IMG/VR virus record: IMGVR_UViG_3300043595_000031
Span: 1-62,175 of that record
Length of the DNA: 62,175 nucleotides
Origin: a virus
Taxonomy: Duplodnaviria; Caudoviricetes
Direction: 5' to 3' (one strand)
A program made the translations under genes and the position numbers. The notes below the pieces were generated by a model. It made no database searches. It had not been told where the DNA came from and saw only the letters and a program-made list of their open reading frames with translations. Below are positions 11,835 to 32,472 of this stretch, in pieces; the stretch's first letter is position 1, and every line of letters starts with the position of its first letter.

Positions 11835-12773
11835 TCACGCGCGGGAGAGGAGCTGCCCGGTGACCTTGTTGATCGCGCGGTGTGTCTGACCCTGCAGTGC
11901 GGCGAGGAAGCGTGACTCGGATGACCCGCCCGTGCGGTCCCACTCGAAGTACTCGGAGACGGCGTTGACGAGTCCCCAGCCGGTACCCGCGTAGCCCACG
12001 GTCTCCGTGCGCGACTGCCAGTTGATCAGGATCTTGCCGATCGTCTCCGCGCGACGAGGACGGTCGGGCAGGACGCGCGTCAGGATCTGCGTCGCGTTCT
12101 CCGTGTCCACCATCGTCTTGACCAGTCGCTGAACGTTGTCGGTGTAGATCGCGGCGTACTCGGTGAGGCGAGTCATCGACTCATTCACAGCAGCGAGCTT
12201 GGACTTGACGTCACCCGTGTGCGTGACGGTCCAGCGGTGCTCCACACCCTTACGGAAGGATGCAAGCGTCAGCTGGTTCATGCAGCGCTGGCGAAGCGGC
12301 ATCACCATCACCTCGACGGCGCGTGAGCAGTCGTGGCTCGTGCGAAGCGTCGCGAACATCTCGTGTGGGTCATCGCCCAGCGGGTCGAATGAACCCGTCG
12401 GAGTCCGCACGACCATGAAGGCCTGCCGACCACCGCGGAGTCCGCCTGCCGCAACGAAGTGTGGGGAGACGGTGTCCATGAAGTCGAACGCCTCGCCGTA
12501 CTGGACGACGGGATACGACTTGCTGACGATGCTGAGCCAGTCGCCCGTGTCATCGCGGACGATGGCCTTACGACCCTCCACCTTGGTGAACTTGGGTGGT
12601 GCACCCTCCTTTTTGACGGAGAAGTACACAGGCTGCTGCGAGACGGTGAAGTTGATCCCACCCATCTCGGCGGCAGCCATCGCGGTGACGGGCTCGTCGA
12701 CGAGCTTACCCAGCTTCATCCACGGGACCTCGCGGGCGGAGAACATCGTGTCGGTGTCGGGTGCTGCGGTCAT
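11835..12773 (-). CDS. DUF932 / phage-plasmid TIGR03299-like protein
   Basis: PWMKLG, YPVVQ, TSHD, CMNQL and GTGWGLVNAVSEY motifs. Confidence 0.88.
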   Translation of the reverse strand: MTAAPDTDTMFSAREVPWMKLGKLVDEPVTAMAAAEMGGINFTVSQQPVYFSVKKEGAPPKFTKVEGRKAIVRDDTGDWLSIVSKSYPVVQYGEAFDFMDTVSPHFVAAGGLRGGRQAFMVVRTPTGSFDPLGDDPHEMFATLRTSHDCSRAVEVMVMPLRQRCMNQLTLASFRKGVEHRWTVTHTGDVKSKLAAVNESMTRLTEYAAIYTDNVQRLVKTMVDTENATQILTRVLPDRPRRAETIGKILINWQSRTETVGYAGTGWGLVNAVSEYFEWDRTGGSSESRFLAALQGQTHRAINKVTGQLLSRA

Positions 12774-12811
12774 CAGTGGCTCCTTCGTTCGTTTGGTTCG
12801 TTGGTAAGTTC

Positions 12812-12840
12812 ACTGTAGCACTGCGATGCGGTTGTGTCAA
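12812..12840 (-). promoter_or_regulatory. Near-consensus SigA promoter
   Basis: TTGACA-17 bp-TACAGT. Confidence 0.8.
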
Positions 12841-13032
12841 CTACGCGGCCTGCGCGCTGTCCCGGTGGAACTTATTGCAGCTGACGTCGTCCGTACGGAC
12901 GATCTTCCAGTCCGTGGGGCTACCTGGGGCGGCGGCCAGAACGGCGTTCTCAGCCTCTTCTGCCGTCCCCGCCTCGACCTCCAGAAAGAAGTACTGCGGC
13001 TTTGTCAGCTCTACGTAAAAGATCTTCTTCAT
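12841..13032 (-). CDS. Hypothetical protein
   Basis: 63 aa with strong AGGAGG RBS. Confidence 0.7.
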   Translation of the reverse strand: MKKIFYVELTKPQYFFLEVEAGTAEEAENAVLAAAPGSPTDWKIVRTDDVSCNKFHRDSAQAA

Positions 13033-13068
13033 TCGTACACCTCCTAAGTTAACTGTACCAGGTCGCAG

Positions 13069-13098
13069 CGAAGGCCGTCACAGCGGTGACGGCCTTCG
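13069..13098. terminator. Terminator-like hairpin
   Basis: CGAAGGCCGTCAC/GTGACGGCCTTCG 13-bp stem. Confidence 0.65.
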
Positions 13099-13099
13099 T

Positions 13100-13467
<368 letters not shown>

Positions 13468-13468
<1 letters not shown>

Positions 13469-13761
13469 TAGAAGCCCATGTCCTCGAGCGACGTCCAGCC
13501 ACGATCCCACTTGGAGTTCGTAGTGGACTTGGCTCGTTTCGTACGTGCTCCGCGCTCGGCGAACTTGAGAGTCTCGTAGTGCTTCTGACGGCAGGCCTCG
13601 ATCGTCCTGCTCAGCGTCTCTGCGATCTCCTCGAGGGTGGCCTCGCTCCAGCATTCCATGAGGAGGTCGGTCTCGTGAGCTTCCCAGAGTTCGCCGTGTG
13701 CCTCGGCGGTTTCGCGACTCTGCTCGTTCGCTTCCTGACGGGCAGCGTAATTGTGAGACAT
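13468..13761 (-). CDS. Small HTH/Myb-like DNA-binding protein
   Basis: WEAHETDLL...TLEEIAETLSRTIEAC pattern. Confidence 0.6.
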
Positions 13762-13846
13762 ACTTTCACTCCTTCGTTCGTTCCTCCAGATCGATCTGGA
13801 TTCCGAGCCACCCGGCTTTCACCGGGTGGAACGGGAACCAGACGAG

Positions 13847-14494
13847 CTACGCGGTTGTGGAAGTCTTGATGACGTGCTTGACCCAGCCGGGCTTAACACC
13901 AACCTTAACTGCGATCTCCTCGGGCGTGGGCGTGGGGATCGCGGCTGCCAGTGCGAGAATCTTCGTCTTTCCGCTCTCCGGCTTGGCGGTCACTGCCTGG
14001 GTTGGCGTCGTCACCGGGGTGACGGTGGCAGTGGCGTGTACCGGCTCGGGCGTTGATTCGACTGGCTGGACAGTGGTCGCAACGGCGACCTGTACTCGGG
14101 CAACGTAGGTTCGTAGGCGGCTCGCAATAAGCTCGGCAAGCATGTATGCGAGAACGGGCCAGGCGTGCGCCGCGGCGGCACCCGCACCAACTTCGAGACC
14201 AGCGATGATGTTAGCCGTGATGCTCGTGCTAAGCGCGATCACCAGGATCCATCCTACCAGCTTGCGATCCGGAAATCCGGGCACCTGGAGCGCGATGGCC
14301 GCGCAGATGGCGAGAATGTCGATCGTAGCGGCAATCCCCCACGCAAAAGCCGTGGTGAGGGACCAACTCTTAAGGAGTTCCACCTGGGTCCCGAAGCTGG
14401 TTACCGCCCCAATCACGGCGATCAGGTAAGCCAGCTTCTTAACGGACTTGGCTGCCTTGAGTACGTACTCAACCGGAATAGTGGTGAGGTCCAT
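13847..14494 (-). CDS. DUF2637/SpdA-like membrane protein with C-terminal HTH
   Basis: About four hydrophobic segments (SFG..., IAATID, SITAN, AWP), Thr/Pro linker, PEEIAVKVGVKPGWV HTH. Confidence 0.65.
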   Translation of the reverse strand: MDLTTIPVEYVLKAAKSVKKLAYLIAVIGAVTSFGTQVELLKSWSLTTAFAWGIAATIDILAICAAIALQVPGFPDRKLVGWILVIALSTSITANIIAGLEVGAGAAAAHAWPVLAYMLAELIASRLRTYVARVQVAVATTVQPVESTPEPVHATATVTPVTTPTQAVTAKPESGKTKILALAAAIPTPTPEEIAVKVGVKPGWVKHVIKTSTTA

Positions 14495-14544
14495 ACTGAT
14501 TCCTTTCGTTCGTTTCTGTGGAGTTGTCAAGTGTCCAACCGCTT

Positions 14545-14599
14545 GGACTCATCAGGACCGGAGTACCGGCCGACGCCCTGTGGAAGCGGCGTTTCGTCC
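14545..14599 (-). ncRNA. Type II hammerhead ribozyme
   Basis: Minus strand: GGAC-GAAA-[CGCC/GGCG]-TC-[GGCCGG/CCGGTC]-CTGATGA-GTCC; predicted cleavage after C at 14572. Confidence 0.92.
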
Positions 14600-14788
14600 T
14601 TAGCTGTGAAGCTTGCAGGTTCGCTGGCCGTGAATCTTGATGATCCCCAGGTTGACGGTGATCGGGCCACAGTTGCAGGTCGTGTCGTAAACCCGGTTCA
14701 AGGTCTTCCGTGTGTCGAGGATGATGAAGATCGTTACGATCGATACGAGGATCGACGTGCCGGTGAGGATCAGTGCGACTGCGTTCAT
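14600..14788 (-). CDS. Small membrane protein
   Basis: N-terminal TM helix; AAGGA RBS; upstream TATAAT. Confidence 0.6.
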   Translation of the reverse strand: MNAVALILTGTSILVSIVTIFIILDTRKTLNRVYDTTCNCGPITVNLGIIKIHGQRTCKLHS

Positions 14789-14837
14789 TGCTTCAATTCC
14801 TTCGTTTGTAGTTGTTCTTCTAGTTCTATTATATCAC

Positions 14838-14871
14838 ATACCGTCCCGCCGTGCAACCGGCGGGACGGTAT
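14838..14871. terminator. Terminator-like hairpin
   Basis: ATACCGTCCCGCCG/CGGCGGGACGGTAT 14-bp perfect stem. Confidence 0.7.
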
Positions 14872-14970
14872 TTATCTCGTTTTCTTACGAACTGTCGGGA
14901 ACTTGACAGCGTTTTGAGCGCTATCCTTCACCCACGGATCAGCCCCTCCTCCACGATCGACCTCCTTCGC

Positions 14971-15915
14971 CTAGGCTGGGATGTCTGGACCCGTCTGACT
15001 CGTGAGCGTCTGCGACGCAGTCGTGAGGGAGATCGCGTGCCTGTGCGGTCCGGCATCTCCGTCGTCTCCACCGCCGACGGTGCCGTCCGCGTTGATTACG
15101 CGGCGCCGGCCCAAGATCCGGTCAACCTCGTCGACGGACCAGTTACTGAGCACCGACTCCGGCCAGCCGTTCGCGTTCGGTTTTGGCAGCGCGCGGATGC
15201 CTGGGTGGGCGAGTGTCAGCTTCCCGTAATCGTCGTTGTCCCTGATCAGCTCGCGCCACCCACCTTGACTGATCCAGAACCCGTCGTTCTCCGCACCGTG
15301 TACGGCCGCGCTAAGCCAGAACGTGTTCACCGTCATGTCGTCGTCTTCTCCTCCTGCCAGCCACTGGGCCAGCGTCTCACCCTTCAAGATCGAGATCATC
15401 GCCCGGTACACGGACAGCGTTCGCAGGAACTTACGAAGGACGCTAAAGTGCATGTGCCAGGTGTGGGTGGCATCCGGGGTTCGCTCTGTCCACGAGACGA
15501 AGTCGTAGCCGTCGGCGGAGACGTCTGGATCTCCTTGACACAGCACCTCACGCCAGCCTTTGAGGCGCGGATCATGCGCGGCCCACGCGGCGCGAATGCG
15601 ACCGCCGTACTTACGGAAGTTCGTGAAGTTCCCGGCCTGCGCGGACAAGAACGTCCAGTCCACCGCGGCGCCGAACTGCTCCAGTGGTGTGCCGCCCACC
15701 TTGTCGTCCGGCAGCTTAATGGAGTAATCATTGCGCCAGATGAAGGCGCCATCGACCTTGTGATTCCACAGCTCCCAGTAGTCACAGTGGTAGCCCGGCT
15801 TAAATCGCCCCCACGCACCGGCGAACACCGTGTCCTTCGACTCGATGCGCTCAAGCTCCTCGACGAACCACCACATCTCAGCCGTGATGTGAGCCGGCTG
15901 CGGGTTGTTGGCCAT
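14971..15915 (-). CDS. Putative endolysin (M15/LAS-type Zn peptidase)
   Basis: GYH...AAVD...HTWHMHFS metal-ligand pattern; catalytic domain followed by GGEDDDM linker and a second domain, the usual actinophage lysin layout. Confidence 0.6.
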   Translation of the reverse strand: MANNPQPAHITAEMWWFVEELERIESKDTVFAGAWGRFKPGYHCDYWELWNHKVDGAFIWRNDYSIKLPDDKVGGTPLEQFGAAVDWTFLSAQAGNFTNFRKYGGRIRAAWAAHDPRLKGWREVLCQGDPDVSADGYDFVSWTERTPDATHTWHMHFSVLRKFLRTLSVYRAMISILKGETLAQWLAGGEDDDMTVNTFWLSAAVHGAENDGFWISQGGWRELIRDNDDYGKLTLAHPGIRALPKPNANGWPESVLSNWSVDEVDRILGRRRVINADGTVGGGDDGDAGPHRHAISLTTASQTLTSQTGPDIPA

Positions 15916-32396: not shown

Positions 32397-32472
32397 AAGC
32401 GGGAGCCGGATTCGAACCGGCGACCTTCGGCTTATAAGGCCGACGAGCACAACCGAGCTGCTCCATCCCGCC
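32397..32472 (-). tRNA. tRNA with TAT (UAU) anticodon, nominally Ile, on an initiator-Met-like body; no encoded CCA
   Basis: GGCGGGA/TCCCGCT acceptor, GAGC/GCTC D stem, TCGGC-CTTATAA-GCCGA, GCCGG-TTCGAAT-CCGGC. Confidence 0.85.

What the first reader, a model, noticed from the sequence alone, without database searches (positions are those of the whole stretch)
14533..14599. Hammerhead ribozyme A with a competing hairpin
Seen: compact type II hammerhead starting right after the TAA of gene 14600-14788. The stem II strand GTCC can alternatively pair in GTCCAA-GCGG-TTGGAC just downstream. Inference: a kinetic or translation-coupled switch, or a protective fold for the 3' product.
Basis: partly seen in the sequence, partly recalled or inferred. 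Interest (0 to 1): 0.7.

Follow-up and report, generated by a model that had tools for sequence, protein, structure and literature searches.

The report
Phage hammerhead ribozyme with competing hairpin
This is very probably a genuine self-cutting hammerhead RNA sitting between a small add-on gene and the next gene of a soil phage; it belongs to a common, already known kind, and its extra hairpin fits a wider habit of such phage ribozymes to fold back on themselves, though this particular hairpin is unproven.

Summary
On the minus strand, 14545-14599 is a complete type II hammerhead (HH-A). It has every core nucleotide, a 5-bp stem III, a 6-bp stem I and a 4-bp open stem II (GGAC/GUCC), and it starts right after the TAA of ORF 14600-14788. 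The cut is predicted between 14572 and 14571. GUCC can instead pair in GUCCAA-GCGG-UUGGAC (14533-14548).

HH-A scores below Rfam's cut-off (25.9 bits against 37). This subclass has a GGAC/GUCC stem II, sits flush with stop codons and lacks the published loop I/tail pseudoknot.

About a third of that subclass carries a 3' fold-back helix onto the ribozyme's own 3' half (31% against 8.5% in shuffles). In the commonest register, core position 7 covaries with the tail (U7 with A 33 times and G 3 times; C7 with G 11 of 11 times). Competing hairpins are therefore selected in the subclass.

HH-A's own hairpin uses a register seen only in HH-A and its identical orthologue. It has no covariation and is borderline by shuffling (9 of 200). 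Energy models put it near the ribozyme fold.

I read it as a post-cleavage trap and 5' protective fold. An attenuator role or chance are live rivals. Translation coupling found no support. This scan reported the same lock earlier on other DNA (e1-6048749, e1-3483521).

The parts
14600..14788 (-). Small accessory ORF (62 aa; N-terminal hydrophobic helix, C-terminal Cys/His-rich tail); TAA at 14602-14600 abuts the ribozyme
   Evidence: ORF list. No Pfam or PHROG match. Only 4 proteins, including itself, among about 5.8 billion. Absent from relatives L004 and L005.
14545..14599 (-). Type II hammerhead HH-A: GGAC (stem II 3' strand), GAAA, stem III hairpin, GUC cut site (14572|14571), stem I hairpin, CUGAUGA, GUCC (stem II 5' strand)
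   Evidence: Sequence reading. RF02276 at 25.9 bits. Descriptor found 2 times against 0.04 expected. Stem pairs checked.
14533..14548 (-). Competing hairpin GUCCAA-GCGG-UUGGAC; its 5' arm contains the stem II 5' strand
   Evidence: -6.6 kcal/mol alone, z -2.32. The palindrome occurs once in the window. Identical in L003.
14495..14532 (-). Leader of the downstream gene, with SD AAGGAA (14505-14500). ACUC/CAG (14524-14516) and AUCAG (14500-14496) are complementary to GAGU/CUG and CUGAU of the ribozyme core
   Evidence: The extended fold-back helix scores -9.1 kcal/mol but z is only -0.71.
13847..14494 (-). Downstream gene, DUF2637-like membrane protein (215 aa from ATG 14494)
   Evidence: Pfam DUF2637 E 0.0044, below its cut-off. 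Relatives L003-L005.
14828..14838 (-). Promoter-like TGTGATATAAT (extended -10) ahead of the 62-aa ORF; GATATAATAGAACTAG is shared with L003, L004 and L005
   Evidence: Read by eye as a consensus match; the sigma-70 scan did not list it.
13402..13468 (-). Second type II hammerhead HH-B; its first G is the G of the TAG of ORF 13468-13761. It marks the 5' edge of a cassette missing in the close relative
   Evidence: RF02276 at 22.4 bits. Sequence. The indel 13097-13467 is mapped.

Best explanation
HH-A is a working type II hammerhead. It cuts the early polycistronic RNA between a swappable 62-aa accessory gene and the conserved DUF2637-like gene. In type II topology the two cleavage products are held together only by the 4-bp stem II (shown from the anatomy). 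The hammerhead fold is available as soon as GUCC is made. The hairpin's 3' arm emerges 6-15 nt later (modelled). After cutting, stem II melts and GUCC is taken up by UUGGAC, or by the longer fold-back with the leader (inferred). This keeps the products apart. It also leaves the downstream mRNA with a 5'-OH end buried in two adjacent hairpins, stem I and the trap, ahead of a free ribosome-binding site. The upstream mRNA ends in the stem III hairpin. The element would thus act like a natural insulator placed next to an inserted gene. Shown: the motif, the competition on paper, and selection for fold-back helices in the subclass. Inferred: cleavage itself, the order of events, and protection of the mRNA end.
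For: The core and the three stems are complete. The descriptor is far above chance.

The subclass is real. 245 of 282 unique pattern hits, found without any pairing requirement, have at least 4 bp in both stems I and III, against 1 of 282 after shuffling. They show 128 different stem I arms.

Stem II is exactly 4 bp in 324 of 443 type II hits.

Fold-back helices of at least 6 bp onto the core or stem II strand occur in 31.3% against 8.5% of shuffled tails (sd 1.3, maximum 11.8 in 30 shuffles).

Among tails reading C-N'-UCAG, U7 pairs with A 33 times and G 3 times, and C7 pairs with G 11 of 11 times (Fisher p 2e-8). The C7 cases come from 8 loci with different stems, and one contig holds both C7-G and U7-G copies.

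The related copy in L004 has core U4C, and its tail reads CAUCGA, which restores that pair.

For HH-A, the hammerhead fold scores -21.7 and the hairpin fold -25.4 kcal/mol, and the hammerhead fold is the MFE at most lengths until the 3' arm is out. Stem I has probability 0.93-1.0 at the very 5' end of the modelled product.

Cassette context: the 62-aa gene plus HH-A are absent in L004 and L005, where the same promoter-like motif runs straight into the same leader. HH-B sits exactly at an indel edge.

Type II hammerheads of D. vulgaris cleave in vivo (PMC8782182, passages read). Tandem bacterial ones cleave in polycistronic RNA (PMC3088659, passages read).
Against: There is no cleavage or RNA-end data for this element.

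The hairpin's register is unique to HH-A and its identical orthologue among 246 subclass members, so it has no covariation. Alone it is only z -2.32 (9 of 200 shuffles).

In a 112-nt model of the 3' product the hairpin has probability only 0.13-0.15, because a different fold-back wins. That extended fold-back is itself not significant (z -0.71, 39 of 200).

In non-GUCC hammerheads, hairpins on the stem II strand do not follow the strand's sequence (10.1% real against 9.0% permuted).

A 4-bp stem II should let the products part without any trap.

HH-A's loop I (UACU, 4 nt) departs from the subclass norm: a 5-nt U..G loop in 115 of 246, and 4-nt loops in only 4 of 246. No pseudoknot is available (at most 2 bp). 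Fast cleavage at cellular Mg is therefore not assured.

On an unselected sample of 150 sequences, the count of structure pairs gave only modest support for the commonest lock. Cells paired were 53.8% against 35-39% for slid partners, but slid versions reached similar covariation scores.
Confidence: 0.42

Rival explanations
1. The hairpin acts before cleavage as an attenuator or switch. It competes with stem II in the uncut RNA, so only a set fraction is cut, either co-transcriptionally or when something shifts the balance. A ribosome terminating at the abutting TAA could cover GGAC and favour the hairpin.
For: The hairpin fold is 3.7 kcal/mol below the hammerhead fold when stems I and III are fixed. 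In a 122-nt precursor the pair probabilities are 0.36 for the hairpin and 0.13 for stem II. The stop codon abuts GGAC, as in 104 of 136 subclass members against about 14% at random places. The subclass locks hide catalytic bases, which suits an off state. PMC2817708 (listing abstract only) reports that adjacent mRNA structures exchange rapidly in vivo, which would let a downstream competitor act.
Against: A flush stop codon and the presence of a lock are not associated (odds ratio 1.10, p 0.77). The 74-nt and 91-nt contexts give the hammerhead fold back as the MFE, with flat ensembles. Tertiary contacts are not in the energy model. There is no covariation for this hairpin.
Confidence: 0.25
2. 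The hairpin is incidental: a chance palindrome or a by-product of how the cassette joined the leader. On this reading HH-A simply cuts constitutively, as other phage hammerheads are thought to do.
For: 9 of 200 shuffles of the 23-nt piece fold as well. 4.9% of shuffled tails give a helix of at least 6 bp on the stem II strand. The register is unique. 55% of subclass members have no fold-back of at least 5 bp. HH-B has none of note (z 0.2).
Against: Fold-back helices are clearly enriched in the subclass and covary in the main register. HH-A lacks that main lock, and a substitute would make sense. The hairpin, ribozyme and leader are identical in L003 while the ORF just upstream differs (81% aa). 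However, that whole block is 90.6% identical, so this argument is weak.
Confidence: 0.25
3. HH-A is an inactive relic or a look-alike, and nothing is cut.
For: It scores below Rfam's gathering score. Loop I is atypical and there is no pseudoknot. The related copy in L004 carries a core change, U4C.
Against: Every core position is canonical and all stems are intact. The placement is typical: flush with a stop codon, on the coding strand, with SD and ATG downstream. The low Rfam score comes from the model's stem II and tail columns, which this whole subclass lacks (alignment).
Confidence: 0.08

Closest known systems
Type II hammerhead ribozymes of bacteria and (pro)phages (Rfam RF02276; Perreault et al. 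2011, PMC3088659, passages read)
   Same: Same core and the same order of parts (GAAA block, cut site, CUGAUGA block). [quoted passage not shown] Same setting: intergenic, near phage genes, often several per operon (two here).
   Different: Below the Rfam cut-off (25.9 against 37 bits). It has no loop I/3'-tail pseudoknot, which that paper reports for a majority of type II examples. In my sample the pseudoknot is enriched only outside the GGAC/GUCC subclass (32% against 12% permuted there; 4.5% against 7.3% within the subclass). The passages I read do not mention a fold-back hairpin.
Core-hiding lock of GGAC/GUCC phage hammerheads (CUGANG-AGUC-CN'UCAG and NGAGUC-loop-GRYUYR registers). No paper describing it turned up
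   Same: The 3' flank folds back on the ribozyme's 3' half and excludes stem II. Same subclass, same flush stop codon, same flanking A residues.
   Different: HH-A's hairpin starts at G10.1 and leaves CUGAUGA single-stranded. The register is unique and not supported by covariation.
RiboJ-type synthetic insulators (hammerhead plus a 23-nt 3' hairpin; described in PMC7536230, passage read)
   Same: A hammerhead followed by a hairpin ahead of an RBS. Cutting removes the upstream context from the next gene's 5' UTR.
   Different: RiboJ is engineered from a satellite-RNA hammerhead of another topology (recalled, not checked). Its hairpin is separate from the ribozyme and was added to stabilise folding, not to compete. 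This is a likeness in how it may work, not membership.
Viroid hammerheads whose self-cleavage depends on co- versus post-transcriptional folding (PMC1636495 and PMC3185496, listing abstracts only)
   Same: Self-cleavage is governed by folding during transcription.
   Different: Those are circular replicating RNAs with type III hammerheads, not phage mRNAs.

Membership tests
Hammerhead ribozyme, type II (RF02276) | Conserved core: C3 U4 G5 A6 N7 G8 A9; G12 A13 A14; A15.1-U16.1; H17; G10.1-C11.1 | tested here: met
   All positions were read on the minus strand: CUGAUGA 14555-14549, GAAA 14595-14592, GUC 14574-14572, G14548 paired with C14596.
Hammerhead ribozyme, type II (RF02276) | Three helices around the core in the order GAAA block, cut site, CUGAUGA block; stems I and III capped by loops, stem II open | tested here: met
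   One search lists the pairs: stem III 5 bp, stem I 6 bp (one G-U), stem II 4 bp.
Hammerhead ribozyme, type II (RF02276) | Score at or above Rfam's gathering threshold (37 bits) | tested here: not met
   25.9 bits; absent from the gathering scan. The alignment deletes the model's stem II and tail columns.
Hammerhead ribozyme, type II (RF02276) | Pseudoknot of 4 or more bp between loop I and the 3' tail (reported for a majority of type II examples; PMC3088659) | tested here: not met
   The longest Watson-Crick match between loop I (with its closing pair) and the tail is 2 bp. The GGAC/GUCC subclass lacks it generally (4.5% real against 7.3% permuted).
Hammerhead ribozyme, type II (RF02276) | Stems supported by covariation among relatives | tested here: inconclusive
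   Met for the subclass (245 of 282 against 1 of 282 shuffled; 128 stem I arms). HH-A's only orthologue, L003, is identical. Other runs showed no difference shared by two or more runs in 14334-14608, but that table was cut.
Hammerhead ribozyme, type II (RF02276) | Site-specific self-cleavage leaving a 2',3'-cyclic phosphate and a 5'-OH | not testable with these tools
   No RNA run was listed for this DNA.
GGAC/GUCC phage subclass (defined here) | 4-bp stem II GGAC/GUCC flanked by A on both sides; 6-bp stem I; stop codon ending within -1 to +2 nt of GGAC | tested here: met
   HH-A reads UAA|GGAC ... GUCC|A. In the subclass: 5' A in 238 of 246, 3' A in 164 of 246, 6-bp stem I in 176 of 246; flush stop codon in 104 of 136.
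GGAC/GUCC phage subclass (defined here) | Loop I of 5 nt beginning with U and ending with G | tested here: not met
   HH-A has UACU. The 5-nt U..G loop occurs in 115 of 246; 4-nt loops occur in 4 of 246, one of them the orthologue.
GGAC/GUCC phage subclass (defined here) | Core-hiding lock CN'UCAG directly after GUC(C) (present in about a sixth to a third of members) | tested here: not met
   HH-A's tail is CAAGCGG.... It has a different fold-back register. AUCAG occurs only 45 nt further on (14500-14496).

The most novel reading that the evidence does not exclude
Fold-back locks may be a general, selected state of phage type II hammerheads. On this reading the ribozyme fires once during transcription, then its 3' half refolds into a hairpin that hides the core or stem II strand. 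Each downstream cistron is left with a 5'-OH, hairpin-capped, context-free leader. These ribozymes would then be natural insulators that travel with swappable accessory genes. HH-A would show that when the usual lock is lost, a new one in another register is recruited. That would give the unexplained bacterial and phage hammerheads a concrete, testable job.
Probability: 0.3. Interest if true: 0.65.

Novelty: new member of a known kind. Interest (0 to 1): 0.4.

Why it matters
A 2019 review (PMC6765202, passages read) calls the biological roles of bacterial self-cleaving ribozymes 'largely elusive'.

This locus offers a compact natural test case. One ribozyme sits at the edge of an inserted gene and carries a competitor hairpin. 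A second ribozyme, 1.1 kb downstream at another cassette edge, has none.

The subclass-wide result matters more than this single hairpin. Fold-back helices are enriched, and in the main register core position 7 covaries with the tail. That points to a selected alternative state.

As far as my searches go, no paper describes such a state. This scan has seen it before on other DNA.

If the locks control cutting or protect the new 5' end, they would explain why these ribozymes cluster between small phage genes. They could also supply ready-made insulator parts for synthetic biology.

Tried and rejected
Orthologues of HH-A. An exact 24-nt stem III pattern found only the two contigs already in hand. 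A pattern fixing stem I found only L039 and the orthologue in IMG/VR and nothing in genome contigs. Homologues of the 62-aa protein: 4 including itself. So there was no covariation test for this hairpin.

Cultured relatives. blastn and tblastn with the DUF2637-like protein found nothing in INPHARED. The DUF932 neighbour reaches only about 30% identity to Arthrobacter, Microbacterium, Streptomyces and Mycobacterium phages. An actinobacterial host is therefore only a guess.

Expression. No RNA holder was listed. The contigs laid are DNA and cannot show RNA ends.

Rejected ideas:
- Repeated operator or DNA palindrome: the motif occurs once in the window.
- Intrinsic terminator: no terminator-like site in 12700-15100 and no U tract.
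- Pseudoknot switch: 2 bp at most.
- General covariation of stem-II-strand hairpins: not seen.
- Translation coupling through a stop/lock association: not seen.
- Further hammerheads in the window with relaxed cores: my script found none beyond HH-A. It missed HH-B because of the tandem G-A mismatch in its stem III.
- HH-B's small UCUC/GAGA hairpin over its SD: not significant (z 0.2).

Supplementary files of papers were closed. The alignments of PMC3088659 (Dataset S1) may show or discuss the 3' tails, and I could not see them.

Full report
WHAT IS THERE

The window is an IMG/VR virus record of 62,175 bp, about 60-64% G+C. It has only remote protein relatives among actinobacteriophages.

On the minus strand the order is as follows:
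- a 314-aa ORF (14971-15915);
- a perfect hairpin (14840-14869);
- a promoter-like TGTGATATAAT (14828-14838);
- a 62-aa ORF (14600-14788);
- HH-A;
- a 215-aa DUF2637-like gene (13847-14494);
- a 97-aa gene (13468-13761);
- a second hammerhead, HH-B (13402-13468);
- two small overlapping ORFs (13216-13383 and 13100-13219);
- a hairpin, then further early genes (DUF932, DUF2786).

HH-A reads UAA|GGAC-GAAA-C GCC..GGC GUC|GGCCGG-UACU-CCGGUC-CUGAUGA-GUCC-A. Every core position is canonical. Stem III has 5 pairs, stem I has 6 and stem II has 4.

Rfam's type II model matches at 25.9 bits, under its 37-bit cut-off, because the model's stem II and tail columns are deleted. The simple descriptor occurs twice in the window against 0.04 expected.

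THE FAMILY

The same happened with N7 set to A, C or G (120 stretches).

Of 282 unique hits, 245 have at least 4 contiguous pairs in both stems, against 1 of 282 after shuffling. They show 128 different stem I arms. These are real ribozymes, not pattern noise.

In a broader sample of 443 type II hits, stem II is exactly 4 bp in 324.

Subclass traits:
- A stop codon ends within -1 to +2 nt of GGAC in 104 of 136, against about 14% at random places.
- An A stands 5' of GGAC in 238 of 246, and an A stands 3' of GUCC in 164 of 246.
- Stem I has 6 bp in 176 of 246, and loop I is a 5-nt U..G loop in 115 of 246.
- An SD plus start codon lies within 60 nt downstream in 197 of 246.

The loop I/tail pseudoknot that Perreault et al. 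2011 report for a majority of type II hammerheads (PMC3088659, passages read) is enriched in my non-GUCC sample (32% against 12% permuted). It is not enriched in the GGAC/GUCC subclass (4.5% against 7.3%).

The subclass also occurs in 42 stretches of prokaryote genomes from many phyla. These include three copies each in a Streptomyces and a Phycicoccus strain.

FOLD-BACK LOCKS

Tails of the subclass fold back on the ribozyme's 3' half far more often than shuffled tails do. Helices of at least 6 bp occur in 31.3% against 8.5%, and helices of at least 5 bp in 45.1% against 22.9%.

There are two main registers:
- CUGANG-AGUC-CN'UCAG, directly after GUC.
- (A)NGAGUC, a 6-7-nt loop, then GRYUYR.

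In the first register the free tail position follows core position 7. U7 goes with A 33 times and G 3 times; C7 goes with G 11 of 11 times (Fisher p 2e-8). The C7 cases come from 8 loci with unrelated stems, and one contig holds both C7-G and U7-G copies.

With a looser 5-bp register, 38 of 41 U7 cases and 21 of 26 C7 cases can pair.

A formal count on a random 150 of the 282 is diluted, because most members lack this lock. Cells paired were 53.8% against 35-39% for slid partners, and no shuffle of 500 reached the observed value. But slid versions reach similar covariation scores. The clean signal is therefore the conditional one.

Hairpins that use the stem II strand do not track that strand's sequence in the non-GUCC set.

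Locks are not associated with flush stop codons.

I found no paper describing these locks (searches; passages of PMC3088659, PMC6765202 and PMC8782182). Supplements were closed. Earlier notes of this scan report the same thing on other DNA.

HH-A'S OWN HAIRPIN

It begins at G10.1, leaves CUGAUGA free, and is the only one of its register among 246 members; the row is the identical orthologue L003.

Energies:
- With stems I and III fixed, the hammerhead fold scores -21.7 and the hairpin fold -25.4 kcal/mol.
- Pair probabilities in a 122-nt precursor are 0.13 for stem II and 0.36 for the hairpin.
- The hammerhead fold is the MFE at transcript lengths 62, 65, 68 and 74, and the hairpin fold at 77-83.
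- In 74-nt and 91-nt contexts the hammerhead fold returns as the MFE, with a flat ensemble.
- The leader can form a longer interrupted fold-back (CUG/GAGU/CAAG with CUUG/ACUC/CAG, -9.1 kcal/mol, z -0.71), or CUGAU can pair with AUCAG next to the start codon.
- In a 112-nt model of the product the simple hairpin has probability only 0.13-0.15.

So the 3' half of the ribozyme is predicted to be paired in one way or another after cutting. The model cannot say which fold wins before cutting.

CASSETTE CONTEXT

L003 (97% identical DUF2637-like protein) has the same 62-aa gene (81% aa identity) and an identical HH-A, hairpin and leader. It lacks 13097-13467, which holds HH-B and two small ORFs. That indel starts at HH-B's first base.

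L004 and L005 (68% and 63%) lack the 62-aa gene and HH-A. There the same promoter-like motif runs into the same leader.

L004 instead has another small membrane ORF followed by a hammerhead, placed between the DUF2637-like gene and the 97-aa gene. The first 28 nt of that hammerhead equal HH-A. Its stem I differs, its core is U4C, and its tail CAUCGA restores pairing with C4.

Ribozymes thus sit at the edges of swappable small genes.

Contigs from other soil runs cover HH-A and show no difference shared by two or more runs between 14334 and 14608, but that table was cut.

READING

Most likely, HH-A cuts the early transcript between an add-on gene and a core gene. Because type II products are held together only by stem II, the short stem and the fold-back would make cutting one-way. 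They would also leave a hairpin-capped 5'-OH leader.

This works like the engineered RiboJ insulator, a hammerhead plus a 23-nt hairpin (PMC7536230, passage read). It is not a member of that design.

An attenuator role for the hairpin, or no role at all, remain serious rivals. Only cleavage assays with arm mutants can decide.

The hammerhead itself is an ordinary member of a known and very common kind.

Noticed in passing
window 13097-13467 (-): HH-B plus two small overlapping ORFs (55 aa at 13216-13383; a very basic 39 aa at 13100-13219, joined by an ATGA overlap) form a block of about 370 nt. The block is missing in the close relative L003/L126. The indel begins at HH-B's first base after the TAG.
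   Followed up: partly
L004 3728-3935: A relative lacking the 62-aa gene and HH-A carries another small membrane ORF plus a hammerhead at a different intergenic spot. Its first 28 nt are identical to HH-A and its stem I is unrelated. Its core is U4C (CCGAUGAG), and its tail CAUCGA restores pairing with C4.
   Followed up: partly
IMG/VR loci L006-L352: In the GGAC/GUCC hammerheads, core position 7 covaries with a tail position (U7 with A 33 times and G 3 times; C7 with G 11 of 11 times). This supports a hairpin that hides CUGANG. A second register, NGAGUC-loop-GRYUYR, recurs in about 30 members.
   Followed up: yes
IMG/VR loci, subclass level: The GGAC/GUCC subclass lacks the loop I/tail pseudoknot reported for a majority of type II hammerheads. 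In this window both members score below Rfam's cut-off (25.9 and 22.4 bits). If that holds for the subclass, standard annotation would miss much of it.
   Followed up: partly
window 14820-14838 (-); L003 2661-2676; L004 2934-2949; L005 2915-2930 and 3746-3761: A conserved promoter-like motif (G)GATATAATAGAACTAG precedes early genes in all four relatives. It occurs once in this window. A perfect 11-bp hairpin (14840-14869) stands just upstream.
   Followed up: no
window 14600-14788 (-): The 62-aa protein has one hydrophobic helix and invariant C38, C40, H53, C58 and H61 across five sequences. Only 4 proteins including itself were found among about 5.8 billion. No family match.
   Followed up: partly
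Genome-contig loci L359, L364, L363: The same hammerhead subclass occurs three times within a few kb in Phycicoccus jejuensis and in Streptomyces iakyrus, and once in a haloarchaeal chromosome (Halorarius litoreus). These are cultivated strains usable for RNA-end mapping.
   Followed up: no
window 13256-13398, run X3: A relative in another soil run keeps HH-B but has 144 other letters in place of 143 letters covering the leader and 5' half of the 55-aa ORF. This is another swap right next to a hammerhead.
   Followed up: no
window 32397-32472 (-): One tRNA gene (61.8 bits), the only Rfam match at gathering level in the window.
   Followed up: no
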